A DNA stretch of 62,788 nt, the filler included, from Collodictyon triciliatum (taxonomy: Eukaryota): NCBI GenBank assembly GCA_043381765.1. It is 10 parts of 10 records of this genome, joined end to end, with 100 filler letters (N's around TTAATTAATTAA, not from the genome) between each part and the next. Parts side by side here need not be neighbours in the genome. Positions count along the whole stretch, not along the records: positions 56,756 to 62,788 come from JBHJMP010004758.1; 9 more parts are not named here. One strand, written 5' to 3'. Positions 154-62,788 of this stretch are shown in pieces (the stretch's first letter is position 1; every line of letters begins with the position of its first letter). A program made the translations under genes and the position numbers. The notes beneath the pieces were generated by a model. That model made no database searches and had not been told where the DNA came from. It saw only the letters and a list, made by a program, of their open reading frames with translations.

Positions 154-3100
154 CATATCTTCATCCAACCTCGGAAATAATGCCTGCACCAAGTCATGAG
201 CGAGCTGTAAATATGTAGAAATTAATCATCTTCTAGAGTAATTTTATGCAAGCGGATATTTTCTGATGACATAATTTAGAATTTAACTGCATGGTTGATA
301 GACTTCAAATCCATCACATTGGTCGAGCCCCCTAGCTTACTTTTCATGAAAATGAAAGGTTTTCTGTTGCATGTTACAGAGTTATGACAGAAAAAAAATG
401 TTAGAATCTACTAAAATCTCAACAACAGTTGTATTCTGCGTACAGGTAGAAATTGACAGCATCTAAAGCCATTTCTTGGTCAGATGTCAGCCCAAGAAGT
501 TGCATGAAATCTTTATGGCGGTATGTTGTAGGGTTGTTCGATTTTAGACTCCATAAGTAATCCATAAGATTCTAATATCACACACATCAAATTAGAAGTA
601 TGGTTTTTGTTTGTGTAGAACATAGAGGATAATAAATATGCAGATGATGAAGAGAAGAGACCAAATGACGTTTCCAATTAAAGGTAGGAACCATGCATAT
701 ATAACCATATATATATTAATTTTTTCCCCAAAGAATCGATTTAACCTCATCGGCTGCGGTTCTTAAACCATGCTTTCCAAGAAAGTAATCATATACAAAT
801 TCTGGTAGTGCCTGTCTTTGTGAGCTCTTTTTGTCATCTTTAGCGTCTGCCACAAGCTACATTTGTGAAAAGATGATTGCTAATATGAAAGGATTTTCTT
901 TATATTAAAATATTATATTTATAAATAGTTTGTTCGATTTTATCTGTACTTTAGCGTTAAGAATATCTGAGGTCATTTTTATAACGAATTTCATCGACTT
1001 AGCTTGCGGAGTATGCCCTAATTTCGATATAAAGTTTTTCAATAGATAGAAGGAAAATATGAAAACTACCGGGTTGAATATTTTTATACTCCTTAAAAGT
1101 CTACAATCCAAATGCGTATTTAGATATCTATATTCTGACCTGACTGTAAGGTCGTTATGAGAGACTCAAAAGATTTGGGTACAGAGATAAAATGGGAGGG
1201 CGTATTGCGGCGAATATTGGGCGAGTTCTTTGTACATACATTATTTTTTTTAAAAAAAAATATGGCAACCAGATGCAAATAATTATGAATCACATGTTAA
1301 AGTAATGTCAGAATATTTGTGGTTATTATCATTAACCCATTTATAAATCATATTAGTATGCGACCGATGGAAAATAACATGATGCATGGGCGAACGATTT
1401 GCATCTGGAGATTTTTTTTTTGACAGGCTAAGTTTACGCCGAGAACTCTTTCCGCTTGCTTCAGAGGACTCCTTTCGTGGCGGTGTAACATAACCTATAC
1501 CACGAGTATATATAGTGCCAAAACCTCCAAAACTATGACAAAGCTATAATGTGTTTCAAATCCAAGATATCGGTGATGCGGTACAGTATGTTCTTTTGGG
1601 ATGTGCCCAATAACTTACAGGAATATATAACCTCCAGATTATCATCCAGTAAGGATTTCCCGTCATCTGAGTATTTTTAAATGGGGAATACATAATTCTT
1701 TAAAATTCAGTTAATTAAAATGTATGAGAAAGTACTTTATTAAAAAAAATTGCAAGAAGAACCTCGGGTTTGACATGAAGCTTGCGTCGACTCAACGAAC
1801 TATATATTATAAATAGTCACATTGACAATTGGTTATCAAATAACAAGCAATAATATTAGGACTTGTAGGCGAAAGCAAACCTGTTTGACGAAAATACCAT
1901 CACCATTTTTGCGTATGATTATGGATTGATCTTTTGAATTTATGTCTTTGGCAACTATTTCAAGAGCTGTGAAATGAGAGAATGCGTCTAGTTCCTAAAA
2001 TAATTTACAAATATGTTTACATACACTGATTAATGCGAAAGGATATATTGATAATATAAAAGAAATGAAAAACAAAACAAAACAAAACAAAACAAAACAA
2101 AACAAAACAAAACAAAACAAAACAAAACAAAACAAAACAAAACAAACCAAACAGAAAGCAAAGAACAGATTGAAGAATTTTCTCACTTTATTATTCGAAC
2201 CAAATAAACATTATCAACAAAACATATAATTTACTGAAAATCATACAATAGTATCTTCAATGGGTTCGTGAAAATCAGTCATTTTGGTGGTATCAGTCTC
2301 AGCGACGAATTGTTGGAACTCTGTCTGCACTCAAGTAAGGAGTAATAACGGGTTCAGATAAAAATTGATCACCAGATATTTTTTTTTTTATTCTTCCTTT
2401 CAACTTTTGTGCAGGACCGAGGGGGTGATTGATCACCAGATATGGAGAATAAATAACTATGTTAATTCCAGCCTCTCCCAAAAAACAAACCTGTCTCATT
2501 TTTATTGCCATTTGAAATTGATCGTCAAAGTCTTGTAATTGTTTCTATTGGGTGAAATATTAAAATTTTGGGCTAAGTCAATTTTCACAGAATGATATTA
2601 CATATTCCAGCTACATCAATACCTGAATGTGAATTTTGTGCTTTCGCTCCAAGTCATCCACTTCTTTCTGGTGCTTCGCTAAAATTTCTGGAGGAGAAAA
2701 TGTTACAAAAAAGAATAATTATTGATATGTCTAATTATTATTATTATTATTATTTTTTAAAAAAAAACCCTGGGTAGCTTCTTCATTTTTTGAACATTTC
2801 GAACGAAGATCATCCAATTCTTGGTTCATGGAGCTCATTTCAAACATGCGATGTTCCAGAAGATCATGCATGTACCGCATTTGCTTTTGTAGCCTATTAA
2901 TTTACCAACGTCAGAATATTTGGATTAAAGAAAAAAATACGAACCATTACACGGCTATCTTAGAAATTACTCAATTAACTTTACTCCGAGTTATTCACAC
3001 AAAAATTTGAATAATAAGGAACAAAGTGAATTCCATGAAAACTTACGCCAGATTATGCTCATTCAGTGTATCAACAATTTTTTTTGCTTCGTCGTTTTTT

Positions 3101-7061: not shown

Positions 7062-7141
<80 letters not shown>

Positions 7142-20368: not shown

Positions 20369-23300
20369 TTAGTGCCAGTTTTCAAGAGCGCTTTTTATCT
20401 TTTGGATTTTCTCTGGGGTGGCCGACCATTTTTCTGCGCCTGCCTGATTCTGAAGTATGTAGACGTGTGTCGCAAAAGGCAGCAAAAAGAACCTGTCTTC
20501 ACTCTCTAAGATGCAAATAGGAGGAAGTATAAAGAAAATATTAATTCAAGGAGGAAATCCACCAAGTAAGGAGAGATATATGCCAAGCCATAGAATCGTA
20601 TTAATCAATAAGATGAAAAAAAATATGTCAGACACGTGCAGCGCGAGGTTGTCGACAGTGATATGATGAATTGGCAACAACCAAGCAGGAGTCGCTGGTT
20701 CTCTAATGTATCCCCTCAGAAATTGGTCGATAGAGACCAACTGCAAAGAATGAGTCAGCCTGCTCTCATGGACTTACCGTTCACCAAATGCTGGTTTCCA
20801 AGAACGTAGCTGTGTCTCTTCCCACTGACAACAAAATCGCCTCGGTTGAACGGACTCGATCCCATGGTGGTCAGATACTCCGCAGGTGGGTCGTTCCAAT
20901 CAGGAACAAAGACGATAAAAGAAAGCGGTCGGGTCGATGACAAAAGGAGTTGATTAAGACGAATAGCCATTCTGTCCATCACCTGTAACATTTCATAGAA
21001 GCATAATCTCATTAATTGAAGCATTAAAGGTTATTTCGAGAGATACATGAACAGGTATATGTGAATGTGTATGTGGTTGTGGTGGTGGCTGTGGTTATAT
21101 CATGCAGGGATTACCTCTTCTGTGTATGGCGGGCCAGTTTCAAAGGAGCCCTCTGATGGGGTGTAGTCGAAGAAAGAACCAACAGAGCCGAAGAATCTAT
21201 CAATATCCGGAAAGGCTGAACCAAATTGCTTCAAATAGCAGTTGAGCGGAGACGCAAACGACCCCTGACAAACACCAAATTCCCTCAATAACACTTCGAA
21301 AACAGATGTAAGAGCAGCAGCATGGAAAGATACTCCCTCACGCTCACCTACATTCAGTTTATGGATTACATATGAATGTTATCATCATCGTTCATTAAAA
21401 GAAAAATGCAAAATGACATTTGAACCAAGGGGAAAGGTATGAAAGTATACACAGAAAAATAACAGCCCTTTTAGACTAGGAACTGAATGTCTAGAAACAT
21501 CGACGATGAAATGAGGGTTTGAGAGATTTTTGTATGATTAACGCCGATTTTCTTTTGACAAAATTGATTATTTTTAAAAATAACTCATTCAAGATTTTGG
21601 CTCGATAAATACCTGGACCGAAGAAGGTAGTGTATCTTCGTAACAAAACATACAGCCTTTCGCCAAACCTTTCTTGCGATGGGTCTACCGAAACTGAATT
21701 CAGCTTGTATAAGGAGTGCAACTTATTATAGTGCCTATTTGAGATTTCGTGGACATCATCCTATTTTATTTTATTTTTGGGATTAAAGGTATAGTGAGTG
21801 ATTGAAACAACTCTAGATAGAAAAATAGTATAATATATAAATCAAAGAAATAAGAAGAGATCAGGCTGTATAAAAATGGAAATGGCACTTCTAAAGAAAA
21901 TGATGCATGTCAGCACTATTGGTTGAAAGATAAGTGGTAATCAAAAACATACCTTGAAGGTGATTCGCACTTTCTCTTCCACGATATCCACCTTTACGCC
22001 GCTTGACTCCATGATATCTACCATAGCTAGCTTTTCAGAGATTGATTGAGAGTAATCAATAACTCCTGAAATAACTTTGTTTATGCGAGATGAATAGTAT
22101 TCCTTGAGGAAAGGTTTGCATCTTTGGATCATCCCTTTCAAACGGCTGCTAACATCCGATGCTTTTGTTTTATGCAGTTTGTGATCTTGGTCAGCCCAAA
22201 CTTTCTCGCCAATCAGAAACTGCAAATGATTAAACAGTGTTACCAACAAGTTTTTGTACTAACGTCAGAGAGGGAAATGTATCCTGATATTCACCAACTT
22301 TTCGTTTTTTCTTATCAAATCTGTTGATTAAATGTTTGCACTTTGATATTAAAACGAAAAGAAAAGAGACTTCTTGAATCTCTTGGGCAATTTTTTTAGA
22401 GCTAGAAACGCCTTCGTCTTTTTTTTCTACAGACTCGGCCCCGTCTTCAGAGCCAGCCTCCTTGTCTTTGGAAATGGTCTCGTTCACTCGAATACTTACA
22501 GATCCTAGGTATTCCCTGAATACTTGTAACACCTCGTGAGGGGTAAAGTAAGTGAGGGACTTTCATAGGAAGCCTCGTCGATTCACATATTGGGCTATGT
22601 AATATAGCTTAAACGTGTTGCAAAATATGTAACTCTTAAATGAATCATATTCCGAAAAGAGTCAGATAGCCATGAATCAAGATTGTGTATAAAAATAAAA
22701 AGAATATGAACGACATATGCGAACTGTAATTGATGTCGAATATATGTTAATATTAATATATATTCGGCATCAGTAATGAATAAGAAATAAAGAAATATGA
22801 TACCCTAGATAACTCGGAGCGCTGACTCCACGATAAATATGTGGAACAAGGTAAGTCTGCCAATAGCTCTCTTCTGAGAACATCGCCCTCGGACGCAACT
22901 GATGGGTTGGTGAGCAAAGGATCGTCTCCTACATTGCATGTAAATTATATGTACATCATATATTGCAGAGTTTGAGTATTTCAGAAGTGGCGGGACGATA
23001 TGCCTAAATTTTTTATATCAAAAGCGCATATGGTGCATTTGGCGGCAACTTTGGAATTGAGGATGACGTTATCATCTCGATGGTACAGAAAAAAAAAAAA
23101 GAACAAGGGCTCTAGGTGCGTGATATATTGGCGTATATATACACAAGAAGATGAAAAGACAAAGATAATAAGGATATAGGGGCAACATAACAATGAACAA
23201 ATAGATTTCATTCATTCAGTTCAAGGGGTGAAAGGATGATAGATAGTACCCTTTCTGCTCTCTGATGGCTCTGAAAGCTGCTGAAATAGCCAGCGGTTGA

Positions 23301-23376: not shown

Positions 23377-24339
23377 CTAATGATATAGTTAAATTGGTAA
23401 GATAAGCATGTCATTCTCACAAGATAAGATATCAATATTCTTCAAGTATATACAGCAATCCACCATTCGTTTCTATGTATATTTTCTAGTCTTAAGAGTA
23501 CATTATCATCGCTTCTTTTTTTTTCTTTTTTTCTTTTTTTCTTTTTTTCTTTTTTTCTTTTTTTCTTTTTTTCTTTTTTTCTTTTTTTCTTTTTTTCTTT
23601 TTTTCTTTTTTTNNNNNNNNNNNNNNNNNNNNNNNNNNNNNNNNNNNNNNNNNNNNTTAATTAATTAANNNNNNNNNNNNNNNNNNNNNNNNNNNNNNNN
23701 NNNNNNNNNNNNAAAGGAAAAGGAAAAGGAAAAGGAAAAGGAAAAGGAAAAGGAAAAGGAAAAGGAAAAGGAAAAGGAAAAGGAAAAGGAAAAGGAAAAG
23801 GAAAAGAAAAACGAGAACGAAGGAAAAAGAAAAGGAAACAAATAAAGAAAAGAGGGAAAAGGAGAAGGAAATATTCAACTCTTACTCTTTCGTGATTTCG
23901 ACGAGATCCTCAGATGACACGGTGTGCTGCTGGCGATCGGGTTGAACAGCTGCTGGGAAAGCCCGAGGTTGGCCACGCAGTCGACATCAGTTTCTTCTCC
24001 AGCGTATTTCACCGCGCAGCAAAGACAGTATTTATGCTGCTGTTATTCGGGGCTCTTCATAGCACGCTTGCTTTGAAAACAGATATGCAACGTTTCTGTC
24101 TGCTTCATCTCTGGCTTTCCTGCTTTGTGAGTTGCTGCGATTTCCTGTTTGATTGTTTGTGATTCTGCTTGATCGAAGAAATCCGTTTGATCTGGAAAGA
24201 CTGAAGATTCATAGAAATACAGCTTATTTGGTGACTGATATTCGTTATATAAGGGAGGAAGTGCATCTGCAACGCCACTAAATCTTGCATTTTTCTATTT
24301 TTCTTTTTCTCTTTATTCTGGTTTTTGAATGAGTATTTG

Positions 24340-27990: not shown

Positions 27991-30085
27991 TTTTGCTGCA
28001 GTTAAGTGGCACTTTCATTTCTTCGCTTTTACTGTCATTTTTTTTTCAAATCAAATTGCTTCAACACCAAATACTATCAGCAGTATTCTGTGCAAAATAT
28101 TTCTCTTTTTCCGAGTCGCAATGATTGACACATCTGTCGTTTTGTTAATTACATAAGGAGCAGTCATTTACCGAGTACAGTGCAGAGTCATCAATGAAGA
28201 GGCTCGATGCCAAACACAAGATAAACATCAAGTTTTAGAATGTAAAATAGAGCTTTAAAAGCAAAATTGATATCAAACGAAAAAAAAAAATTTCGAATAA
28301 TTTTGATTTTATTATCCTTGAACTTCAATATTTTCTCACAAGTGGAGATGATTACTTTTTTAAATGCTTGGCTAATCTATATTAGTGATGCTTTGAGTTT
28401 ATGGACCGATTTATAGACGCTGCAATATTCGGCCGCAGCGATGAGCAACCGTTTCATAAAGCACAACATAATTCTAGCAGCTGGAAACATCGTCATATCT
28501 CCGTATTCAGTCGACGTCATAAGCTGCGGAATGTGGGAAGGAATGAGCACTTGTGCGTCGGGATTGCGCTCCGATGCAAGAAGAACGAGAAAAATAAAAT
28601 ATTTATCTTGTATGAAAGAGTGAGAAAAACAGAAAAATTGTGTTCTCTTACACATTGATGATGAATGATGTGCAGCAGATTGAATTATGGACGACATACT
28701 TTTCTCACTTTCATGGCAAAGAGAACCTTTGCAAGATGCACCGTGGCCATGCAAACAACATGCGAATGAGGCTGGAAAATATCATTTAATCCAGTGCCTG
28801 GAAAAAATCGAATTAGCGCGATGGAATCAAAGAAATATCTAGGATGATGTAATTGCAGAGCATCTGAAAAAACAGTTGGGCACTTGGAGATGAATAAGTA
28901 TCGACGGTTCAATTAAGCTTCCGATTCTGATAGTAACAAATAAATATGTATTGGTAACAACTGCAAACTTACTTTGATTTTTAGAGTGTTCCGACGGCGA
29001 TGGTGCTGTGTTGGTCGGGCATGTATCCACACTCGGCGTGTATGTCACCATTGTTTGAACAAGAAAGATGATTTTATTCTTTTCCTGATGTTTTTTAACT
29101 CATTTACACCAAATATCCAAATAATGGCTTCAAAGTTATGTTTTTCTAGTCCAAAAAATACATCTATATCTCTTCATGTGCTTTATTTAAAGGTAGGTTG
29201 TATTCAGTGCCCCTTTGGTTTTGCACAAAAACCACACGGGTGGCAACCAAGCCTCAACTTGACGACGAGAATGTGGTCTACGAGCACTACCGGACGCGAC
29301 TGGTAGAGCGAACAGAAGGGATGCAGGAGAAGGGACTCTACCCGGCCGGCTGCGTGGTGCGCCTTGTGGGCGAGTACACTGAGACACTGACGCGCCACAC
29401 GCCTGTGCTTGCTGGTGCAGCTGTGCGAAGTCCACCGCACCCGTGAGTGCGCCACGGAGGGCGTTGTGCTGCTGGCATCCGACCTGTCGAGCGGCCTGGG
29501 CCTTGCATACCCCTGCAGGGAGACGGCCGAGCGCTTTGTCCCACAACAAAGGCGAAGCCACACCACAGCTCGCGTCGATTCCAGAGCCAGCACACACACC
29601 AACCCTGGCAAAACCCCCCGCCAACCCCAAAGACTCCACAAGAGGCTCCCCTTCTACTGCGGACAAAGACCCAAACGCGTCCTCCAACTCGGCAGGCACG
29701 CTCACAGGCAAAGCCGCACCCAACGCCGCCCCACAGCGGACACAAACAAAGCCCGTCGCCACCCAAGCGAAGGCNNNNNNNNNNNNNNNNNNNNNNNNNN
29801 NNNNNNNNNNNNNNNNNNTTAATTAATTAANNNNNNNNNNNNNNNNNNNNNNNNNNNNNNNNNNNNNNNNNNNNTTTCGTTTTTTCTTTTTTTCGTTTTT
29901 TCGTTTTTTCGTTTTTTCGTTTTTTCGTTTTTTCGTTTTTTCGTTTTTTCGTTTTTTCGTTTTTTCGAAATGAAATTAAAAGAGGCAACCGAAGAACTAA
30001 ACCCAGTATCTTTTGCCCAGCCTTTCTTACTCTGCAGTATTTCTTTTTGTTTTATTCTTTCTTCTTCTGGCAAGAACCTGCAAAG

Positions 30086-35833: not shown

Positions 35834-35872
<39 letters not shown>

Positions 35873-36011: not shown

Positions 36012-36109
<98 letters not shown>

Positions 36110-36773: not shown

Positions 36774-42515
<5,742 letters not shown>

Positions 42516-44317: not shown

Positions 44318-44364
<47 letters not shown>

Positions 44365-44493
44365 AAAATTAAGAGAAAGGAAAAGATATATNNNNNNNNN
44401 NNNNNNNNNNNNNNNNNNNNNNNNNNNNNNNNNNNTTAATTAATTAANNNNNNNNNNNNNNNNNNNNNNNNNNNNNNNNNNNNNNNNNNNNAC

Positions 44494-45527: not shown

Positions 45528-48024
45528 ATGATTGTAAAAGACTTTTTGGAGCTGGAATCTACAGCATGGGTCTCTGTCATACTTTCCTCAATATGCTACG
45601 GATCGAGTTACGTAAGTAAAACGCACAAAGTCAAAAGTCGTTCGACATTTTACTAAAAAAACTAAATGCCTCTACATGAGACGATTATTTTACTTATTAA
45701 TGCTTGATCAGAGTCATCACGCTCCTCTAGTTTAAATTTGCTGAGGCAAAAATTATACTTCATTATAATTAATATTCAAACTAGTATTGCAGTGGCAACC
45801 ACGCAAAGACTATATATTGATATTTCTAATGGACCGGTATTATAATTTGCGTATTAACTACTTTTGATTTTTCTGTTGATTTAGATCGTCACAAAGCGAT
45901 ATCCAACAGGAAACGGGCTCATGTTTGCGTGGGTATGAAAAGCATGTCAACACATGCCACCGTTATATAAAAATAGCTTCTGTTTTTTTAGCAACAAGCA
46001 TTAAGAAGTTTATATTGATAGCGAATCCCGCTAACTTCAGAAAGAGTCCAAGAATTGATGTGCTTCATTATACGCCAGTTTTTTCATAAATATAAAACAC
46101 TCAGCTGAGCAATTACTTCAGGCCATGTCCATGGGTAGTTTGATTGTGGACTTCTTCTGCTCTCTCTTTAACAAACTCATTTTTGTTAATTCAGGTGGGT
46201 CTTCATGAGCCAGTGAACAAAATAATTATAAACACCATAACTACTCGTCTACGTAAATAAATCCTATAATGTTCCATATTTTATTTTTGCATTTTTTTTG
46301 TTTGGAGTGAGAAATGTGTGGATTTACATATCAGAGTGTTTCAGATGTGGAGATAGAACAGTTTATTTCATTTTTTAATTATAAAATGTACAGATTTTTA
46401 GGAATCCTTGGAGGGAGTCTATGGGGAGTCGGAAATCTGATGACGATTATTGCCATTCGTCTGATAGGACTTGGCCCTGCATACAGCATATGGTGTATCG
46501 CATGTCTGGTTAGTGGGTGGCTATGTGGGCGTCTTGGAGCTTTTGGAATAGCAAAACCAGATATTAAGAGCGCAGCATTAAATATTCTCGGTAAAAAAAA
46601 CATTCTCTCCTTTATTTCTTGCATTGCTGTGATGGCACGTACAGTATCTTCGATTATCTTCTAGGAATATATATATCAATAATTTCCTATAATATATATG
46701 TCCTATTAAAAGGAACTCTTGATTGCAGGTGCGTTGATTGGGGTATCTGCCATTGTAGTCTTTTACTATGTTCGAAAGGACGAGCAACTAGAAGAAAGAG
46801 ACTGGGACGGATATGAAGAGTATCGCCCCAAATCAAAGCCACTTGCAAAAAGGGTTTTGGAAAATGATTTTAACGGAGTGCCTGGCCAAGAGATCGAGAA
46901 AAGCTCTGACTTGCTGTAAGGATTATATACTTGATACATCAAATCTAAATACACCCTTAGTTTTCTTTTTTTTAAAAAAAATATTATCACATATAATAAT
47001 TGGAAGAAAATGACATATTCAGTTCTTTTCTGGATAACTTGGAGAAAACTCCAAAGCAAATTCTTGGTGTCTTGATAGCGACATTAATTGGTGGGTGATA
47101 TTAGGCCTTGGAGACTATATTTAGTTAAGCTTTGACAATCTTGGTAATTTTACAAATATAGAGCATTCGTCTACTTTTTTTTTTTTTTGAAATTTCACAC
47201 AGGCTTGATTTATGACTTCACTGGAATACCAAACCAACTCTGGTATGAGGACAAACAAGATAAGGAGGACGAAGGTGGAGACGACGGTTATACCCCACTG
47301 GATTTCGTTTTTTCACAATTCATGAGAATATTTCAGTTCATGAATATCATCTTCATCGTTCACATCGTCTTCACAAAGAACAAGCCCGAGGTATTATCTA
47401 TCTCTTTCTCTTTCTCTTTCTCTTTCTCTTTCTCTTTCTCTTTCTCTTTCTCTTTCTCTTTCTCTTTCTCTTTCTCTTTCTCTTTCTCTTTCTCTTTCTC
47501 TTTCTCTTTCTCTTTCCTGAATATATTGATGAAGTGTTTGGGAACTTACTCACAAAATCACCAGATGTTCCCAGAGACCATCCTTCCATCCATGGTTTGT
47601 GGCATTATTTGGGCTGTTGCCAGTGCTCTGAACTTCATCTCGAACAGTACACTCAGCTACGGCATATGTATGGCTCTAATTATGTATTCTTTCTTCTACC
47701 AAACGTGCTCTATCCAAAAATAAAAAAAAATAACTATCTGCATAGGTACTCCTAAGTTGAAAATGATGTACCTTGTGATTTATTCAATTTTATTTATGAA
47801 AAAGAATTTACACAATTGTTTAATGAATGAATTTCTCTGACAATGCCCTGATAACATCTCAAATTATAGCCTTCCCGATGGTTTGCATGGGCCCTGTCAT
47901 TGTGACTGCGCTGTGGAGCATTCTCTACTTCAGGGAAATCACACACCCGAAGCATATCGGTCTTCTTGTTGCCGCTTTAGTATTAAATCTAATTGCTGTC
48001 CTCTTCATTGCATTTTCGGTCTGA
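45528..48024 (+). CDS. TMEM144: TMEM144-family (DMT superfamily) membrane protein
   Basis: [31 protein letters not shown]...[10 protein letters not shown]...[19 protein letters not shown] and [23 protein letters not shown]. Probable 5'UTR intron at 45434-45521. Confidence 0.88.
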
Positions 48025-48414: not shown

Positions 48415-50066
48415 TTAATTTTCAAATGGAAACTTTTTGAGCTGTGAAAGCTCAGAAGGGGACTTTTCGGGTCTTGATGACGTGATTCCAGCCGTGGGTA
48501 AAGCAAAAATCTTGAATAATCGATATTTAAATCTCATGATTATTTTATAAGGAAAAAAAAAAAAACAGAAGAAATCGAAGTACCTCTTATATGATTCACC
48601 TATACATACAGCTAATATCCAACCATGTGAATCACTCATGAAAAATAAAAAAATAAAAAACATATGGTACCTTGTTTTGCGATATGTCCAGACACTCAAG
48701 CGAATTTAACTGCAAAACCACCATGGGAAAATCCTCAAACTGTTAATGCAGTTTTCATTATTAAAAATCAGATATATCCTCATGACGCATAATGCATTTT
48801 ATGCAAGCGAAATAGCCCTTCTAGCTGGTGATAATAATGTAATTACAAAACGATTCAGTGCTGGGTCATTCTCACTAACCTGGTTTGCATGCAAGCATAA
48901 CTTTCTCAAGGCGGTCAGCATCGAAAAGGAGTCAGGCAAAGTCGACAGCTAATTAGTGTTAAAGTTTGGTTTCTTGACTAGAAGGAAAAAAAGAAGCTTA
49001 AACAAGTGCGAAATACTAGGGATATATTATTTTATATTCAAGAACAGCCAAAATAGTAAAACGGAAAAAAGGATACGAAGGTTGTGATTGATAAACTAAA
49101 ACAAGACATAAAGGGATTACTCTGTTGTGAGACAAGTCGATAGACTCTGTGTTCACCCATTCTAACACTTCACTTGTCAGACTCTTAATCTGTTCATGCG
49201 GACGGAAAATGTCGAAGTATTGGACATCATCCAAATCATGACTTAATTGATTTGCTCGTCTTGGAGTCCGGTTCCTGTTTTTGTATAAATCCATCTCCTG
49301 AACGCTAACATGCGCTCGTTTCTGTTTAAATCTTGGAGCATTATGGAAATTCCAGCTTAATTGAGTTAGACTTCTCAGTGCTGAAAAGGTCATCGGTAAT
49401 GCATAAATCTAGATGAATAAATAAATGATTAAATGATTAAACGAATGAATGAATTAAAAGCAACATTCTGACTTTTCGTTTTTGTGTACAGTGTCAAAAT
49501 TTGCAGTCGGTATTTAAGAAATATTCCGAAAAAAAATAACGAGAGAACGAGAGAATGGAAGAAGTATGAATTTTTACATCTGTGTCTGAAATAGAAAGAT
49601 ACTCAAGATTCGCCAAATTAGAGAGGGAATCAGGTAGGACTTCTATAAGGGTATCATGGATACATAAACTCTTTAGGCTTTTAAGATTCAAAAGCTGTTC
49701 AGGAAGTGATGTCAGGTTACATCCACTTAAATCTAGGTCCTCAAGCAAGCAGAGTGATGATATATTTGGAGATATCTCCTCACAAGGATTGTTAAAAAAG
49801 CATATGAACGTCAATTTGGTCGCGTAGAAAAGATTCTCAGGTATACACGTGAAATCGTTGTACTCTAAGTAAACTTCTCTCAAGTTCGTAAGATACGACA
49901 TAGCGTCGGGTAATTCTGAAACACTGCTATCCGGAATACTGAGCCTAGTGCAATTTAAGATGTCCTGTGAATCATTTCCTCCGCTGAATCCGAAGTGTAG
50001 AGGTCGTATGGATTCGAAGTCGTACAGCACTTGCTTTTCCTTCGTTCGGACGGTTGGCTGTGACAT
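48415..50066 (-). CDS. Leucine-rich repeat protein
   Basis: Repeated LxxLxLxxNxLxxLP units over five exons. The 3' end and the start (50066 or 50117) are uncertain. Confidence 0.85.
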
Positions 50067-50337
50067 AGAGAATAAAAGAATTTGTTGAAAGGGCTTACAC
50101 AAAGGTAATGACTTCATGGAGAAAAATAAACATGAAAGAATAAGTTATAAAAAAAAAAAAAGGACAGAAAACATGAAAATACTAAATCAGAAAAAGGAAA
50201 AAGGAAAAAGGAAAAAGACAGAAGGTAGGAGAGGACAGAAGAGTAGAGCCGCTTGTATGTAAGGTCTCACTAGTAAAGAATAACAAATGACTTACAACAC
50301 CATTTTTTAGACCTTCGAGGAAGCCACCATAAATCGT

Positions 50338-50397: not shown

Positions 50398-51205
50398 CAT
50401 TCGTTCTTTATTCTATTTTAATTACTTAAGAACCACGCTGGCGTTTATCTAGTTTAGTTTTTTTTTTTTTTCATCTCTAAATTTATGCATCCTTTTCTTC
50501 TTATATATATATAACTCAATTTACTATNNNNNNNNNNNNNNNNNNNNNNNNNNNNNNNNNNNNNNNNNNNNTTAATTAATTAANNNNNNNNNNNNNNNNN
50601 NNNNNNNNNNNNNNNNNNNNNNNNNNNAAAGAAAAAAAGAAAAAAAGAAAAAAAGAAAAAAAGAAAAAAAGAAAAAAAGAAAAAAAGAAAAAAAGAAAAA
50701 AAGAAAAAAAGAAAAAAAAGAAAAAATATTAAAAGGAATATACACTTTGTTTACATCCAAGGACAGTTTATTTCCCTCTCACAAAACCCTTGGTTTGCAA
50801 CGCATTGGCGATTCTCAAGAAAAACCAACACAATCACCAGGTGCAAGCATGTTCAATAATACTGGCTTTTGTCAGAATGGCTATAAGAGCGGAAGTTCTG
50901 ACTAAATAAATCAGTAAAACACTTTCTTTGCTTCTATTTTTTTTTTTTAATGGTAGAAAATGAGATGGGAAAGTGTTGGAAGTGACAGAAGGCTCTGTTG
51001 TAGCCAATATCGGAAGGCTGTCCGTTTGGCAAGTGCTCTATCTCATTATTAGAGACAAAACGCCACCATAATTCAGACAACTTCATGCTTCATCAGACAA
51101 CCCTACAAATACCACAATTGTAAGTTCGAATGACAAAAAAACCCTTTTATAAAAGGACATAAATATTCTACATCAGACGCTTGCATGGCCACATAGCATG
51201 AGAAC

Positions 51206-56510
<5,305 letters not shown>

Positions 56511-56896
56511 CTGCATTCACATTGTATCTTTGAAATTAGCGTGCAATATAATAATATATGAGCAAAATTTAATGCACATAAATGAAACAAACAAACAAAC
56601 AAACAAAACTTATACACAAAATGAAAAATGAAACTGGGATTATACTATGGTAACTNNNNNNNNNNNNNNNNNNNNNNNNNNNNNNNNNNNNNNNNNNNNT
56701 TAATTAATTAANNNNNNNNNNNNNNNNNNNNNNNNNNNNNNNNNNNNNNNNNNNNAGAAAAAAAGAAGAAAAAAAGAAGAAAAAAAGAAGAAAAAAAGAA
56801 GAAAAAAAGAAGAAAAAAAGAAGAAAAAAAGAAGAAAAAAAGAAGAAAAAAGAAGAAAAAGAAGAAAAAGAAGAAAAGAAGAAATCCACAAAAAAC

Positions 56897-57252
56897 CTCG
56901 TCAGCAATAATCCCTATGAGACTCGGATCGTCTATTGCCTCGGACTTTGCCATTTCCAAACACCAGTGTTCAACCTACGCAGAATGGCTTTTACAGATTA
57001 TCTCCATGCCTGAAATCTATGGACGCCACTTTACAAGCATGTGTGTATATAAATCTCAAGCTATGAAGAGACATCTACTGTTTGTTTCATAAGAACGACA
57101 TTCTCTTTGACTGCGTGTTTTTCCACCAGTGACTCTGCGCGATTCGGCAGCCGATCCCCACAGCGTTTGTTGCTGGCTGGCAAAGCACAGAAGAGATTAT
57201 TGCTGCACTATAATTTCCACAACAAGATAAGATACCGTACAACAATTCTCAT
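56897..57252 (-). CDS. 5' exons of an unidentified gene divergent from SPEF2
   Basis: In-frame spliced model MRIVVR|NKRCGDRLPNRAESLVEKHAVKENVVLMKQT|VEHWCLEMAKSEAIDDPSLIGIIADE|gt. No family recognised. Confidence 0.4.
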
Positions 57253-57659
57253 CGGGATAATATGTCCAGAATAAGCGACCGTTGTGATCGACTTTACAAT
57301 ATCACAGCTGGCAGTATTCGATCAAAGCTGGAGTCGGCCTCATCTGAAGTTCAAAGACACAAAACCCACTGATTTGCTTGGCAAGTTTATCTTGACGGAG
57401 ACGTTTATTCTGTTTTAATCAAAACAATGCAGGGAAACACTGGCCATAGCTTTGAAGTTTAAGAAGCCCCACCCCAAAATATATACGCACTGCAAAATAT
57501 TATTCAGCACTCAACTTTCCCCTTATATACTTAAACTGCAACCAAAACCACTCGAATAATAATATCTGCGAAAAGACGAATACCCATGTGTACTGGCAAC
57601 TATACACACTGACTGCTCCGCATATATTTTTTAACATTCTATGTCCATAAAAAAAAGAA

Positions 57660-57715
57660 GAAAGAAAGAAGGCTTTGAATCGAATAAAGGAAAAAAAAAA
57701 GAAAGAAAGAAGGCT
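57660..57715 (+). mobile_element. Ultra-short poly(A)-tailed retroposed insert with 15-bp TSD (copy 1)
   Basis: GAAAGAAAGAAGGCT [TTGAATCGAATAAAGG A10] GAAAGAAAGAAGGCT. Confidence 0.85.
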
Positions 57716-57850
57716 CTCATAAACACAATAGATTTCCCTTGTCTAGTTTCGACTGAGAAAGCCAACCATATTCAAAGAGACCAGGAAGATCATTCTCAGC
57801 AAGACACGGGAAACCATAGCAAAAGAGATAAAGACTGGAAACGTGGAAAC

Positions 57851-60800
57851 ATGTCTGAGATTCTTGCAAGCTGGTTAAACGAGCAGATCGGACTTTCTTC
57901 CAGAGTAGATCCGCGATCTTTGGAACTGGACTTCTCCAACGGGTTCCTGTTTGGCGAAGTCTTGCACAAACACGGGCTGCAAAGTGACTTTGACATGTTT
58001 GCGAATCGCTCCACAACTGAAAGCAAAGTTCTCAACTTCTCACGCCTGGAAACTTCATTGAAAGATGCGCTCGGGATTGTGCTGACCTCAAAACTTGCCT
58101 CTGATATAATGGCCGAGAAGAAAGGTGCAGCAGGAAAGCTTTTACTGCAGATGAAGCTCGCCCTGGAGAATCTCGCAAAAGGTATGTCTTAACTTTACTT
58201 AAACGCCTACACTTTGAATCGAATAAAGGAAAAAAAAAAACTCTACTTAAACGTGGAGTGGCATCATCCGGTATTCGTGTAGATTATATTGCATTTATTT
58301 ATTTATCGCGTTTCTGTCTTTGTTGAAGTGCCCTGTTACTAAAAGTCTGGTGATGTTTTCATTTCGATTTAGTAAAGCCAACATCATTTTGATGCAGTAT
58401 CGATATGATTTTTTTAAATTCTTAAATCACCCATCTCCTTTAATATTGTGTTGTTTATTCTATTATACTCTTATGCCCTTTGAATCGAATAAAGGAAAAA
58501 AAATACTCTTATGCCCTATCATCTATCTTCTAACATATTTAAGCTAATCGGTCTTTTATTTAATTATTTAATTAATTTCCCTTTAACAGCACGCAATGCA
58601 ATTCGAGATACCACGAGATTGAACTCTTTATGGAGTTCAAAGCCATCGCAGAAGGCACAGGCAACTCTGAAGTTTAAAGAGTCATTGCGTCAGAAGACAC
58701 CGCGATATTACGATCTTTCCAGTGCAGCTCACCTGAAGAAATACACCGATGAAGGAGAGCGTAACAAAGTTTGCAAAAAAAAACCTATTCAAATTAACCA
58801 ATTCATATACCAATGATTCATTAATTCTACAAAAAATACAAGGATTAATATCCAATTTACCGAATTATATTATATTATATATTATCATTACCTTAAATGA
58901 AATTAACTGGCCTAAAATTCAATTTTTACAAAAAAAAAAAAAAAAAGCAACTTTCTGCACGACTTCAGCAGCAGGATGAAGATGGTCGACACGAAAAGCT
59001 TTCCGCTCGGCGACAAGACCAAATCCATAGACTCAAAGACAATCAGCGCTCAGCGAAGGAATGGGATGAGCAGAATGCACAAATACACTTACAGTCTCAA
59101 CAGTCACGAATGGAAAGGGAAAGATACGAGCGAGATGTGGCTTTGGCAAAGGAGGAAAAGAAGCGACTGAAGGCCGAGGTATATTCTTTCTCTTATATTT
59201 TCTTCTCCTTCTGTTGATGATGTTCAAGCATGTCAATCTACGACATCATATCATATTTCTACATCATATATTCATTATTCGTGGATATATAATGAACACG
59301 GATACACTTTTTTAATTGTAGAACGAAAAAAGAGAGCTGGCCCTTGACATCGAGAGAAACATCGAAAATTTTGAAAAATCTATTGGAATAGCCGCACCCA
59401 ATTATGTATGATTGTCTTCGTTTCTCTGTCTTTATGTTCTTTGTGGAATGTAGCAAAAATATCTTGAGTTAATATCACCATTATCTGTTTTTTTCTTCTT
59501 CTTCTTCAAATATTAATATGAAAAATTAATAAACAAAGGACAACTCAAGCGACGAAAATAGTATGGATGTAGACCATTCGCTGAATATACTTCACAATGA
59601 CGCCGATATTGTGGTGGCTTCTCATACGACTGCATATGAGCATATCGAAGAACTGAAGAAAAGGGTCCCTGGGGCTCAAGAAATGAAGATGGAGTCAGAA
59701 GATTTCATTCGAAAACTTAAGGTTAGCCTTTCAATGTTTCAATCATTGACAACAATCACCTATATATTTTGCAATAATTCGAAAATTGAGTATTACCCAT
59801 TTTTTCTTCAACAACTTAACAAAGCCATAACCCAGTGGCTAGTATAATTTTTAATCGAAAAAAAATATAAAAAATATGTATAACGGGGATATTCAGGAAA
59901 AGAAGCAAAATGAGGAGCAAAATAGACTGGAGCGAGAAAAGAGGCGGCGAAAAGTTATGCTCGATCAAATGAAGGCATATTCTGAAGTCGAAACAAAACG
60001 CGAGGAGCAATTAATTGTATCTAAGCTGATGAAACAATCGGATGGAGAGAAGCTTCTTGGAAACAGGTAATATTTCTTCCTAATCATTATTGAATGACTA
60101 CCCAATAAAGTTATTTTATTTTCTACAAAGAAGTAAAATCAAATCTGGGTCGATACATGAAAATAATTATTTTCAAACTTCTTTACATAGGCTCCTGTAT
60201 ATTAGACGTGAGAAAGAAGTAGTGAGAAAAAATCGGGCGTACAGAGAAAAACAATATGCTGAGCAAAGATACCGGGACATTATGTGTGCTTTAGAACGAG
60301 ACAGATTAATTGCAAACAGGAATGAGGAAGAATACCGAGAGCAAGTCTATATTGTTTTCCTTTTTTTTTTTAAGTTTTTTCTTTTTTAGTTTTTTCGTTT
60401 TTCTCTTCTTTTAAATAACATGAAAATATGACATAGAGATACTACCGAACTTAAATACGTCCCATGATATTTAGATCCAAATTGAAAAAATGAGACTTGT
60501 TGAACATAATCGCATCCGCAAGGAGCGAAAATATGATGAACATTACAAATTCTGTGTTGATATCATGCGCGATATTGTTGGGCTCTCGTGCAAGGTTTGT
60601 CCTAAACACCTTTAAAGATTTCATGGGAACCATACATGATGTAATATTTAACCAAAAATTTTATAAAATATAATATTATCGCTGACATAATAGATTGGTC
60701 ATTACCGTGAGTTTCATGATGGTTTAATATCGCCCAAGCTGCTACGTGAATGGTTGTCATTCTTCTTCAACAAAATTTCGTTAGATGAACCCGTAAGTCG

Positions 60801-62707
60801 GACGAGTCCACGTTAGCTGTGTTCCACTTTCTTTTTATCTTACCATATCACAATACATATCCTGGAACGTGGTGAATATAGGTTAAATATTTAAATATGT
60901 TTATTATTCCTTTCAATTAATGCAAGGTGGTGGGAATGTTGGCTTTAAGATTTAAATAATTGTGTAAATAAATGACATAAGTTTGATCACTTAGACAAGT
61001 TCGGGCCTTCCAAATGAGATTCTCATGGAAGTGGACTTTGAGCAATATTTTTTGAATCAGGGAGAGTGGGCTCTGAGGTTTTACATAATTTTTTTCAATA
61101 TGAACAAAACAATAACTCAATGCACAGTACGTCTACATGTCTCTTTCCATATGTGATGTAATTTAGTTATTTTTATTTTAATGTTTTTTCATGCGCAAGT
61201 GAGCCCGAGATACCGAGCATTATTTTGTCCAAAATCGTTCAAGAAATAATCGATGTTATTGTACCTGCTCCCAAAGCACCTGAGCCCCCAAATCTCCCCA
61301 CATTTTCATTCAAGGTAGAACAAACACTCTCCTTGGATATTTTTTTCTTGATAATATTTGACCTCCTGAAGCAATAATTGAGATCAATTCGTAACCATAG
61401 CATACAGTATTTTTGGGACATATTTTGTATATAATTTTCTCTGTATTTATAATCGAGTTACTAACCTTCATGTGTTCTTATTTTTCCCAGGCGTGTATTT
61501 TTGGGAAACCATTTTCAGGAAAAAGTTCACAGGCACTCCAGTTGTCTCAAAAATATGCGCTCTCCATACTCGTCCCGGAAGTTTTACTTCAAGAATCTAT
61601 CAGGTCGAATGCTGATTTAGCACTTTTCAATAATTATAACAGCGCATTCTTAATATCATTACGATACTTGGGTGTCAGTTTAACTAATTTTCGACCTTTT
61701 TTTTTTTTTGAAAAAAAACTACAGTGCTTATGAGATGCAAGAAATGAACGAGGAGGGAACCGAGAAGTCTGAGAGAGCTCGTCTTGGAGAGGCCGCTTTG
61801 CACATTCTAGCCAACGGGGAATATGTAAATTACACGCTAAGCATCAAATACATGCCGTAACCAACCAGAGGCCTTCTCTTTCAAGAGGACATTTTTCAAG
61901 AATACAATTGAATTATAGAGAATTTATGATGCAAGGTACATTATATATTTTGTCCCCTTTACTAGGTCGATGACGAACTGATAGTTCGGCTTATAACAAA
62001 TGCTATTCGGAGGCTTGGAGAGGACGGAAGTGTGGTTGGATGGATTCTCGATGGATTCCCAAGAACGTTGAAACAAGCTCAGTTACTAGAAAAGAATTTG
62101 ACGGGGTGTGTATCTATTCGCAAATATTACTTTATCTCATTTAATTCATCCATGAAGCGACGTTGCTACTCTTATTAGAAGTTTTATACTCCCTTACATA
62201 ATTGAGTCCAAAATACTCTACAAAATCCATCAGCATAAAAATTAATGACTGATGATATATGATTGATTGACTATGCTACTTGCATCCAGGTACGACTCAC
62301 AGCCTGCGGAACACGTTTTTAAGTCAATAGATGATGGAGTCATTCATAAATATGTCATCAGAAAATCGCGCCTCCTATCCCCAGTGGGAAGCAACCTGCC
62401 GATCAATCATACAGTCATCCAAGCCGGCGTTGATGCAGCTTTTCGTTTGGATGTCTCCGATGAGCTCATCATACGTCGGGCCGTTGGAAGGCGAATCGAC
62501 CCTGAAACGAGCGTAGTGTACCATATTGAGTACGACCCTCCTCCACAAGACGAAGTAAGACAAAATTATTTACTATGTAGCCGCATTATTACAATATTAC
62601 ATCAGGGAAATATGATTGATTGTAAAGACACAGGGTGAGGTTTACAAGATGCACTTATTATATTATTTGATTTGTTACTGAGTCGATACTTTATTTTATT
62701 TGCTTTA

Positions 62708-62779
<72 letters not shown>

Positions 62780-62788
62780 GTGTGTGTG
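57851..62788 (+). CDS. SPEF2: Sperm flagellar protein 2 (SPEF2/CPC1/KPL2), 3' partial
   Basis: CH-like N-terminus MSEILASWLNEQ...FSNGFLFGEVLHK...NFSRLE, coiled coils, and an adenylate-kinase-like domain (GKPFSGKS, GWILDGFPRTLKQA, RRAVGRRIDP...YHIEYDPPP). Confidence 0.95.
58191..58253 (+). mobile_element. Ultra-short poly(A)-tailed retroposed insert with 15-bp TSD (copy 2, SPEF2 intron 1)
   Basis: AACTTTACTTAAACG [CCTACACTTTGAATCGAATAAAGG A9] AACTCTACTTAAACG (one mismatch between the TSD copies). Confidence 0.85.
58465..58517 (+). mobile_element. Ultra-short poly(A)-tailed retroposed insert with 15-bp TSD (copy 3, SPEF2 intron 1)
   Basis: ATACTCTTATGCCCT [TTGAATCGAATAAAGG A7] ATACTCTTATGCCCT. 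Confidence 0.88.
62709..62788 (+). repeat. (GT)n microsatellite
   Basis: Dinucleotide array at the contig end. Confidence 0.95.

What the first reader, a model, noticed from the sequence alone, without database searches (positions are those of the whole stretch)
57660..58517. Three ultra-short (23-33 bp) poly(A)-tailed retroposon inserts, each with its own 15-bp TSD, clustered at the SPEF2 5' end
Seen: TTGAATCGAATAAAGG(A)7-10 occurs three times in 860 bp, all on the + strand (one upstream of the SPEF2 ATG, two in intron 1). Each copy is flanked by a different 15-bp direct repeat, so these are independent insertions, not a tandem duplication. The insert is essentially AATAAA plus a tail. Copy 2 extends 5' to CCTACACT. 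Copies 1 and 3 share the same 5' breakpoint, and the target ends in CT, matching the element (microhomology). Copies 2 and 3 sit at TT|A sites. Established: poly(A) tail, variable TSD, 5' truncation and microhomology are the signature of target-primed reverse transcription by APE-type LINE machinery. Inference: either an extremely truncation-prone LINE/SINE, or a minimal 'tail-only' retroposon with a local hotspot. Sense-oriented AATAAA in intron 1 could cause premature polyadenylation of SPEF2.
Basis: partly seen in the sequence, partly recalled or inferred. Interest (0 to 1): 0.85.

Follow-up and report, generated by a model that had tools for sequence, protein, structure and literature searches.

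The report
Three tiny poly(A) retrocopies at SPEF2
Three 23-35 bp poly(A)-tailed inserts with their own flanking duplications really do sit at the start of a SPEF2 gene; they look like aborted copy-and-paste events of a LINE-type reverse transcriptase, a known process in an unusually miniature and clustered form.

Summary
TTGAATCGAATAAAGG occurs exactly three times in the window, all on the + strand within 860 bp. Each copy has a pure A-run of 10, 11 or 8 and its own flanking direct repeat of 17, 15 (one mismatch) or 15 bp. Copy 1 lies 176 bp upstream of the SPEF2 ATG. Copies 2 and 3 lie in a verified GT..AG intron 1. Flanks are otherwise unrelated.

A fourth mini-insert of different sequence, with the same anatomy, lies at 2364-2443. 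Four such inserts are seen against 0.1 expected.

The best reading is independent, recent target-primed reverse transcription by an L1-like LINE enzyme. Each event stopped after 16-24 nt and was sealed at a 2-nt microhomology.

The parent element, the genome-wide copy number and the cause of the clustering (P about 3e-4 or less) could not be tested, because no eukaryotic DNA collection was open. There is no RT gene in the window.

The host looks choanoflagellate-like. The window is a chain of about 6-kb pieces joined by linkers, so SPEF2's neighbours are unknown.

This is a new member of a known kind and of moderate interest.

The parts
57658..57674 (+). Copy 1, 5' target-site duplication AAGAAAGAAAGAAGGCT (17 bp; the first 2 A's could belong to the tail instead)
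   Evidence: (longest exact direct repeat)
57675..57698 (+). Copy 1 insert: 16-nt core TTGAATCGAATAAAGG plus 8-10 A. It lies 176 bp upstream of the SPEF2 ATG.
57699..57715 (+). Copy 1, 3' target-site duplication (identical 17 bp)
58191..58205 (+). Copy 2, 5' target-site duplication AACTTTACTTAAACG. It starts 9 nt after the exon-1 splice donor.
58206..58238 (+). Copy 2 insert: CCTACACT plus the 16-nt core plus 9-11 A. This is the longest copy.
58239..58253 (+). Copy 2, 3' target-site duplication AACTCTACTTAAACG (one mismatch to the 5' copy; 10 bp exact)
58465..58479 (+). Copy 3, 5' target-site duplication ATACTCTTATGCCCT (15 bp)
58480..58502 (+). Copy 3 insert: 16-nt core plus 7-8 A
58503..58517 (+). 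Copy 3, 3' target-site duplication (identical 15 bp)
57851..58181 (+). SPEF2 exon 1 (CH-like domain PF06294). The host gene, not part of the element.
58182..58589 (+). SPEF2 intron 1 (GT..AG, 408 bp, about 322 bp before the two insertions). Holds copies 2 and 3 in sense orientation.
2364..2443 (-). Fourth mini-insert of a different sequence on another piece of the window. A 16-bp duplication (ATTGATCACCAGATAT on +) flanks a 48-bp insert that on the minus strand ends ...GAAGAATAAA plus an A-run.

Best explanation
These are three separate, evolutionarily recent insertions made by target-primed reverse transcription. An L1-like LINE protein (apurinic-type endonuclease plus reverse transcriptase), encoded somewhere outside this window, nicked the bottom strand at an A/T-rich site. 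It primed on the poly(A) tail of one and the same RNA species, most likely the 3' end of a LINE or SINE family whose AATAAA sits directly in front of its own A-tail. It copied only the last 16-24 nt. The short cDNA was then joined to the upstream end of the target. In copies 1 and 3 this happened by annealing at a 2-nt CT microhomology. The second nick, 15-17 bp downstream, produced the duplications. Shown here: the anatomy of the inserts, their independence, their youth, and a second insert family of the same build. Inferred: the enzyme, the identity and length of the template RNA, and abortive synthesis as the reason for the tiny size. The clustering at the SPEF2 5' end is real but unexplained. 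I rank a regional target preference (open chromatin at a gene start) slightly above the other options, without direct evidence.
For: Exact 16-nt core three times on one strand. Pure A-runs of 10, 11 and 8 nt directly abut the 3' duplication. The three duplications differ and measure 17, 15 and 15 bp. That is the length the abstract of PMC4245944 reports for human L1 (15 bp), and it says this length is set by the LINE species. The 3' end is constant, with two different 5' ends. A CT microhomology is present at both short copies. This fits the 'annealing' 5'-joining pathway named in that abstract. Copies 2 and 3 sit at TT|A, and copy 1 sits in a purine tract whose bottom strand is T/C-rich. Compare the L1 endonuclease consensus 5'-TTTTT/AA-3' (abstract of PMC8565326 as listed). 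Flanks are unrelated. A fourth A-tailed insert of 48 bp with a 16-bp duplication and a different sequence shows the machinery is not tied to one RNA. Four A-tailed inserts with duplications of 15 bp or more were observed against a mean of 0.1 per simulated window. Four of 40 simulations had one, and none had a duplication longer than 15 bp. AATAAA lies 2 nt (family A) or 0 nt (the fourth insert) from the A-run. mRNA-derived L1 products have it 10-30 nt upstream (PMC5110952, abstract and passages), so a retroposon tail fits better than an ordinary mRNA end. Near-perfect duplications and cores with zero differences indicate recent events. Very short products have precedent: a 6-nt Alu plus A40 insertion in SERPINC1 (PMC4859970, Table 1 passage). 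L1-superfamily LINEs are active in the unicellular holozoan Capsaspora (PMC4007536 passages).
Against: No parent element, no longer copy and no RT or endonuclease domain was found. The window holds 0 further copies of the core or of the 19-mer with the 5' extension. It also shows 0 RVT or Exo_endo_phos hits in 207 ORF entries. All 4 of 4 inserts are under 50 bp, which a normal L1-like length distribution would not give. Copies 1 and 3 share the same 5' end, which could mean a short template and not random truncation. Only 2 of 4 target sites are TT|A. The other two are G|AAG and CC|ATAT. Three copies within 860 bp, with none in the other 55,855 bp, is not expected for dispersed insertion (P = 5.7e-4; 3e-4 or less per piece). 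In the nearest named relatives, published surveys report no complete poly(A) LINE. M. brevicollis has LTR elements only, and S. rosetta has two partial SLACS-like fragments (PMC6875170 passages). Raw reads were not available, so an assembly artefact is not excluded.
Confidence: 0.7

Rival explanations
1. Tail-only micro-retroposon. The template is itself a very short polyadenylated RNA of about 18-26 nt plus tail, from a tiny master locus or a processed RNA fragment. The inserts are then full-length or nearly so, not truncated. It is still mobilised in trans by a LINE enzyme.
For: Copies 1 and 3 have the same 5' end. All 3 copies are 33 bp or less, and no longer copy exists in 62 kb. The unrelated fourth insert is also tiny at 48 bp.
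Against: Copy 2 extends 8 nt further, so at least two 5' ends exist. The shared end of copies 1 and 3 coincides with a CT microhomology that explains it without a fixed RNA end. There is no promoter-like or structured RNA signal: no Rfam match and no stable fold (z = 0.38). No such short retroposon family is known to me (recalled, not searched exhaustively).
Confidence: 0.12
2. Local self-seeding. Copy 2 arrived first from a source elsewhere. Its sense-oriented AATAAA plus A-run in intron 1 caused premature cleavage and polyadenylation of SPEF2 pre-mRNA. Those locally abundant short transcripts, which end in exactly this tail, served as templates for copies 1 and 3 nearby. A variant: the tail is the 3' end of the SPEF2 mRNA itself, which lies outside the window.
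For: It explains the clustering. Copy 2 is the longest and the only one with a mismatch in its duplication, so it is plausibly the oldest. Copies 1 and 3 have perfect duplications. The bases before the core in copy 2 (CT) are compatible with the junctions of copies 1 and 3. Copy 2 cannot derive from copies 1 or 3, because its 5' extension does not match their flanks.
Against: There is no evidence that the intronic signal is used. LINE enzymes are not known to reinsert locally (recalled). One mismatch in 15 bp is a weak clock. The same junction data fit a distant master equally well.
Confidence: 0.1
3. Assembly or gap-closing artefact. Overlapping contig ends were not merged, which gives a false 'duplication', and the small gap was filled with an abundant A-tailed read such as cDNA or adapter-like contamination.
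For: The assembly is fragmentary. The window is ten pieces of about 6 kb joined by linkers, and 13 of 18 piece ends are microsatellites or homopolymers. The duplications are all k-mer-like in length, 15-17 bp.
Against: The A-tail is always on the side and strand expected for retroposition. The tail lengths and 5' ends vary. A different insert sequence shows the same anatomy. One duplication has a mismatch, which an unmerged overlap would not. The 46-nt locus has only chance-level matches (E of 3 or more) in 72,556 plasmid records, which include vectors. The 22-mer occurs only twice in prokaryote genomes, both times inside a coding sequence and with no tail.
Confidence: 0.04
4. Repair-templated insertion without reverse transcription. 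Breaks in this region were patched by a polymerase copying a nearby sequence, one of the other copies, as in polymerase-theta end joining.
For: All copies lie within 860 bp of each other, a distance over which such copying is known to act (recalled). Microhomology is present at the junctions.
Against: This route does not produce 15-17 bp duplications of the target, nor a constant A-tailed 3' end with varying tail length. The fourth insert, on another piece, has no nearby template.
Confidence: 0.03

Closest known systems
5'-truncated L1 / L1-mobilised insertions of mammals (target-primed reverse transcription)
   Same: Poly(A) tail abutting the 3' duplication. Variable-sequence duplications of about 15 bp (PMC4245944 abstract). 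A/T-rich nick sites. A constant 3' end with 5' truncation. Microhomology-assisted 5' joining. AATAAA placed directly before the tail (recalled for L1).
   Different: All four inserts seen here are under 50 bp. Tails are only 8-11 A. The three copies of one family are clustered within 860 bp. The host looks like a choanoflagellate-like protist. No parent element has been identified.
Extreme truncations in human disease, e.g. the SERPINC1 insertion of 6 nt of Alu plus A40 ('shortest Alu insertion', PMC4859970 Table 1 passage)
   Same: It shows that the same machinery can leave only a few template bases plus a tail.
   Different: In humans this is a rare outlier of a family whose normal copies are about 300 bp. 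Here it is the only form seen (3 of 3, and 4 of 4 counting the second family).
Class 1 templated sequence insertion polymorphisms (PMC5110952, abstract and passages)
   Same: Short non-LINE sequences with duplications and A-tails, inserted by L1 ORF2 protein acting in trans on polyadenylated RNA.
   Different: There the polyadenylation signal lies 10-30 nt upstream of the tail, and each insert has a unique source. Here the signal is 0-2 nt from the tail, and the same 16 nt were inserted three times.
L1-superfamily families CoL1-CoL4 of Capsaspora owczarzaki (PMC4007536 passages)
   Same: Active L1-type LINEs in a unicellular relative of animals, with duplications but no conserved target sequence.
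   Different: Those are full families of 12-51 copies with long 3' UTRs. I did not see their sequences, so no relationship to this tail was tested.

Membership tests
Products of an APE-type, poly(A)-dependent (L1-like) LINE | Pure poly(A) tail at the 3' end, directly followed by the 3' target-site duplication | tested here: met
   A-runs of 10, 11 and 8 nt abut the duplication in 3 of 3 copies. The same holds for the fourth insert.
Products of an APE-type, poly(A)-dependent (L1-like) LINE | Each copy is flanked by its own direct repeat of variable sequence, roughly 7-20 bp | tested here: met
   17, 15 (one mismatch), 15 and 16 bp. The expected number of such structures is 0.1 per simulated window.
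Products of an APE-type, poly(A)-dependent (L1-like) LINE | Common 3' end with variable 5' truncation points | tested here: inconclusive
   There are only two distinct 5' ends among three copies. Copies 1 and 3 share one.
Products of an APE-type, poly(A)-dependent (L1-like) LINE | Insertion at a TT|AAAA-like endonuclease site | tested here: inconclusive
   TT|AA and TT|AT for copies 2 and 3, G|AAG for copy 1, and CC|AT for the fourth insert. Four sites are too few for a consensus.
Products of an APE-type, poly(A)-dependent (L1-like) LINE | A parent element in the same genome that ends in the same tail and encodes an endonuclease and a reverse transcriptase | not testable with these tools
   None is in the window. 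No eukaryotic genome collection was open. The prokaryote scan gave only 2 chance hits inside a coding sequence.
SINE | Internal pol III promoter or a tRNA/7SL/5S-derived head | tested here: not met
   The inserts are 23-35 bp. There is no Rfam match at gathering threshold or at E up to 1 around the cluster, and no tRNA-like sequence. A full-length SINE parent elsewhere cannot be excluded.
Truncated processed pseudogene / class 1 TSIP (mRNA 3' end) | Polyadenylation signal 10-30 nt upstream of the tail (PMC5110952) | tested here: not met
   AATAAA ends 2 nt before the A-run in the three copies, and runs into it in the fourth insert.
DNA transposon / MITE | Terminal inverted repeats and a duplication of fixed, short length | tested here: not met
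   The insert has no inverted termini on direct reading and no stable fold. The duplications are 15-17 bp, longer than those of any DNA transposon superfamily I recall.

The most novel reading that the evidence does not exclude
The 16-24 nt tail is a self-propagating micro-retroposon, which would be the shortest retroposon family described. It would either be made from a tiny polyadenylated RNA, or be re-seeded locally because each sense-oriented copy creates a new polyadenylation site whose transcripts end in the same tail and are reverse-transcribed back into the neighbourhood. In a choanoflagellate-like genome it would also be the first footprint of an active poly(A) LINE machinery in that group, and a class of mutation that ordinary repeat annotation misses.
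Probability: 0.12. Interest if true: 0.7.

Novelty: new member of a known kind. Interest (0 to 1): 0.4.

Why it matters
If the reading holds, this genome has, or recently had, an active L1-like retrotransposition machinery. The genome's closest named relative in my searches is a choanoflagellate, a group whose published transposon surveys found no complete poly(A) LINE. The visible products of that machinery are micro-insertions of a few dozen bases. Inserts of this size are below the reach of routine repeat masking, yet each carries a sense AATAAA into promoters and introns. They could therefore be an overlooked source of regulatory and 3'-end variation in compact protist genomes. The tight cluster at one gene start, if it is not an accident, would point to a target preference or a local template supply. 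Neither is described for poly(A) LINEs.

Tried and rejected
Parent or longer copies in the window: none. Of 41 loose matches to the 15-nt tail, 30 lie in three 8-bp microsatellites, 8 are scattered two-mismatch matches (one is the tail of the fourth insert) and 3 are the copies themselves. The two closest scattered matches, at 11654 and 24304, have no flanking repeats.

Kilobase-scale A-tailed elements: the 9 candidates with 10-12 bp 'duplications' are at chance level, and several would span piece linkers, so I rejected them. A 12-bp repeat at 52391/52490 lies inside a kinase exon, so I rejected it too.

A hairpin in the tail: none.

Relationship between the three copies and the fourth insert: the alignment is marginal, with 95 of 2000 shuffles scoring as well. 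I keep it only as a lead.

RNA families and tRNA genes near the cluster: none.

Prokaryote genome scan with the 22-mer: 2 hits, both inside one conserved coding sequence of Flavobacteriales MAGs, without tail or repeats. These are chance hits.

Plasmid and vector comparison: only E of 3 or more.

Motif string in papers: 0.

Cluster look-up of the closest SPEF2 relative: the service was switched off.

Third homology search (CEP76 exon): nothing found.

My early idea that copy 1 lies in a divergent promoter shared with a kinase gene is withdrawn, because a linker separates the two pieces.

Not checked: metagenome contigs and viral contigs, which were closed. Any eukaryotic genome or read set. 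The supplements of the S. rosetta and Capsaspora transposon papers, which may hold LINE 3' ends to compare with this tail.
Full report
**Observation**

The 16-mer TTGAATCGAATAAAGG occurs exactly three times in the 62,788-base window. All three copies are on the + strand, at 57675, 58214 and 58480. No further copy appears even with two mismatches allowed. Chance expectation is 0.16, and 0 of 100 shuffles reached three.

Each core is followed by a pure A-run of 10, 11 or 8 nt. Each insert is bracketed by its own direct repeat:

| Copy | Direct repeat | Length | Coordinates |
|---|---|---|---|
| 1 | AAGAAAGAAAGAAGGCT | 17 bp exact | 57658-57674 / 57699-57715 |
| 2 | AACTTTACTTAAACG / AACTCTACTTAAACG | 15 bp, one mismatch (10 bp exact) | 58191-58205 / 58239-58253 |
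| 3 | ATACTCTTATGCCCT | 15 bp exact | 58465-58479 / 58503-58517 |

Only copy 2 carries eight more 5' bases, CCTACACT. A 19-mer that includes them is unique in the window even with three mismatches allowed. Copies 1 and 3 begin at the same base. In both, the upstream repeat ends in CT, the two bases that precede the core in copy 2. An alignment of the three loci with about 60 bp of flank shows that only the insert is shared.

**Gene context**

The ORF that starts at ATG 57851 carries the CH-like domain of sperm flagellar proteins (PF06294, E = 5e-19). It is 74% identical over 110 residues to the N-terminus of a 1531-aa SPEF2/CPC1-type protein from a EukProt transcriptome, and 45-49% identical to mammalian SPEF2.

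A tblastn of that relative against the window gives 11 collinear segments. Residues 1-111 map to 57851-58183 and residues 111-170 map to 58589-58768. So 58182-58589 is a true GT..AG intron, which also follows from direct reading.

- Copy 1 lies 176 bp upstream of the ATG.
- Copy 2 begins 9 nt after the splice donor.
- Copy 3 lies about 90 bp before the acceptor.
- All three are in the sense orientation of SPEF2.
- The later exons are conserved, so the gene does not look damaged.

**The window is not one contiguous stretch**

The window contains nine identical 100-bp linkers, N44-TTAATTAATTAA-N44, which give a stop in all six frames. They cut it into pieces of 6048 (cut by the window start), 5182, 6042, 6040, 6062, 6037, 8380, 6036, 6028 and 6033 bp (cut by the window end). 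Thirteen of the 18 piece ends are microsatellites or homopolymers. I found no gene that crosses a linker.

The simplest reading is a chain of separate, similar-sized contigs of one fragmentary assembly. The finding lies wholly in the last piece (56756-62788) and is unaffected. However, nothing can be said about SPEF2's upstream neighbour. I withdraw my interim idea of a promoter shared with the kinase gene at 53.6-56.3 kb. The other nine pieces (55,855 bp) are best used as a sample of the same genome.

**Is it a class, and is it beyond chance?**

A scan for direct repeats found a fourth structure of the same build on the first piece. A 16-bp repeat (2364-2379 / 2428-2443) flanks a 48-bp insert. 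On the minus strand this insert ends in GAAGAATAAA running into an A-run.

I ran a controlled scan of all 296 A or T runs of 6 or more, looking for flanking repeats of 12 bp or more with at most one mismatch, within 600 bp. It found four cases with repeats of 15 bp or more. These are exactly these four inserts. The mean was 0.1 per simulated window. Four of 40 third-order Markov simulations had one case, and none had a repeat longer than 15 bp.

Candidates with 10-12 bp repeats at kilobase distances are at chance level, and several would span linkers. The fourth insert aligns only marginally with the three copies: CCTACAC..TTGAA..GAA against CCTGCAC..TTGAA..GAA, with 95 of 2000 shuffles scoring as well.

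**Clustering**

Three uniform points in the window fall within 860 bp with P = 5.7e-4. Zero copies in the other 55,855 bp bounds the density at one copy per 18.6 kb at most. At that bound, a 6-kb piece holds three copies within 860 bp with P = 3e-4. At lower densities the probability drops to between 7e-6 and 5e-7. The cluster is thus not what dispersed insertion predicts, unless the window was picked after the fact from very many.

**What it is**

The anatomy is the textbook footprint of target-primed reverse transcription by a poly(A)-dependent LINE with an apurinic-type endonuclease:

- An A-tail abuts the 3' repeat.
- The repeats differ in sequence but are uniform in length, 15-17 bp.
- The 3' end is constant while the 5' end varies.
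- Microhomology is present at the 5' junction.

The abstract of PMC4245944 reports 15-bp duplications for human L1. [quoted passage not shown] Copies 2 and 3 sit at TT|A. Copy 1 sits in a purine tract whose bottom strand is pyrimidine-rich. Compare 5'-TTTTT/AA-3' for the L1 endonuclease (abstract of PMC8565326 as listed). The fourth insert sits at CC|AT, so the target consensus is undecided.

The AATAAA lies 2 nt from the tail in the three copies and runs into the tail in the fourth insert. In L1-mobilised mRNA fragments it lies 10-30 nt upstream (PMC5110952, abstract and passages). That favours the tail of a retroposon, in which the signal precedes an inherited A-run, over an ordinary mRNA end. 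That L1 is organised this way is recalled. For SINEs with AATAAA and A-rich tails I saw only the start of the abstract of PMC8466645 in the listing.

Zero differences among the cores, pure tails, and perfect repeats in copies 1 and 3 point to recent events.

**What could not be found**

- The window holds no parent. There is no reverse transcriptase or endonuclease domain in 207 ORF entries of 75 aa or more.
- There is no RNA family hit, at gathering threshold over the whole window or at E up to 1 around the cluster.
- There is no tRNA gene.
- The tail has no stable fold (z = 0.38).
- The only nucleotide collection open to a pattern scan holds prokaryote genomes. The 22-mer hit two Flavobacteriales MAGs inside the same conserved coding sequence, without tail or repeats, which is a coincidence.
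- A comparison with 72,556 plasmid records, which include vectors, gave only chance-level matches.
- The motif appears in no paper of the library.

**Host**

The PCIF1 exon at 21103-21378 (minus strand) is 70% identical to a EukProt transcriptome protein. It is 65% identical to Salpingoeca rosetta, the best named hit, and 59% or less to fishes. Together with the SPEF2 result, this suggests a choanoflagellate-like unicellular holozoan. The placement rests on two exons.

Published surveys, read as passages, give the following:

- Only LTR elements in Monosiga brevicollis (PMC6875170).
- Two partial SLACS-like non-LTR fragments in S. rosetta (PMC6875170).
- Four active L1-superfamily families in the filasterean Capsaspora (PMC4007536).

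An L1-like machinery here is therefore plausible but not yet documented for the group. A 2025 chromatin paper on choanoflagellate transposons holds no passage on LINEs.

**Why so short, and why here?**

Very short products are known as rare outliers. One example is 6 nt of Alu plus A40 in SERPINC1 (PMC4859970, Table 1 passage). Here all four inserts are under 50 bp. Three explanations are possible:

- The enzyme or the host aborts cDNA synthesis very early. This is my preferred reading.
- Longer insertions are purged from a compact genome.
- The templates are themselves short.

The shared 5' end of copies 1 and 3 is explained by the CT microhomology, but it is equally what a fixed RNA 5' end would give.

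For the clustering I see three options that the data cannot separate:

- A preference for accessible DNA at gene starts.
- A local template supply. In this model copy 2 arrived first. It is the longest copy and the only one with a mismatch in its repeat. Its sense AATAAA would create prematurely polyadenylated SPEF2 transcripts that end in the same tail. The SPEF2 mRNA's own 3' end lies outside the window.
- Selection of the window after the fact.

An assembly artefact is unlikely given the consistent polarity, the variable tails and the second insert family. Only reads can exclude it.

**Verdict**

This is a real and tidy feature. The process is known, but here it appears in an unusually miniature and clustered form, probably in a protist lineage where it has not been described. 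I class it as a new member of a known kind and of moderate interest. There is a minority chance, about 0.12, that it is a truly minimal or locally self-seeding retroposon.

Noticed in passing
window 2364-2443 (minus-strand insert 2380-2427): A fourth A-tailed mini-insert of different sequence (48 bp, ending GAAGAATAAA plus an A-run on the minus strand), flanked by a 16-bp direct repeat. It has the same anatomy as the three SPEF2 copies and shows only marginal sequence similarity to them.
   Followed up: partly
window 6049, 11331, 17473, 23613, 29775, 35912, 44392, 50528, 56656 (each 100 bp): Nine identical linkers, N44-TTAATTAATTAA-N44, split the window into ten pieces, most of them 6028-6062 bp long. 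The window is probably a chain of separate similar-sized contigs, so adjacency of genes across linkers is unproven.
   Followed up: partly
piece ends, e.g. 36012-36106 (A95), 35835-35870 (A36), 44319-44368 (A33 G A16), 23519-23605, 29880-29966, 50631-50717, 56756-56875: 13 of 18 piece ends are homopolymers or microsatellites. These include 8-bp-period arrays such as (GAAAAAAA)n and (GAAAAAAC)n, and also (TTTTCC)n and (TAATAG)n. The genome seems very rich in A/T-biased simple repeats, or the assembly breaks at them.
   Followed up: no
window 7064-7138: A 75-nt A homopolymer lies directly next to an exon of a sodium:sulfate symporter-like gene (minus strand, PF00939 region). No flanking duplication was found, so it is not evidently a retroposon tail.
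   Followed up: partly
window 49497-50144, 51209-52553 and 53620-55078 (minus strand): A leucine-rich-repeat exon and two sets of Tyr/Ser-Thr kinase-domain exons. They suggest tandem or related kinase genes typical of holozoan protists. The LRR exon lies on a different piece from the kinase exons.
   Followed up: no
window 19012-19308, 20758-21760, 36777-41859, 46311-47723: Other recognisable genes: a Vti1-type v-SNARE, PCIF1 (cap m6Am methyltransferase family), CEP76 (four domain hits) and TMEM144. Two genes share one 6-kb piece, which indicates a compact genome.
   Followed up: no
L001 301-322 and L002 301-322: The 22-mer from the inserts occurs by coincidence in two Flavobacteriales MAGs, inside one conserved coding sequence (peptide ..SFESNKGKLPWP..). 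It is unrelated to the finding.
   Followed up: yes
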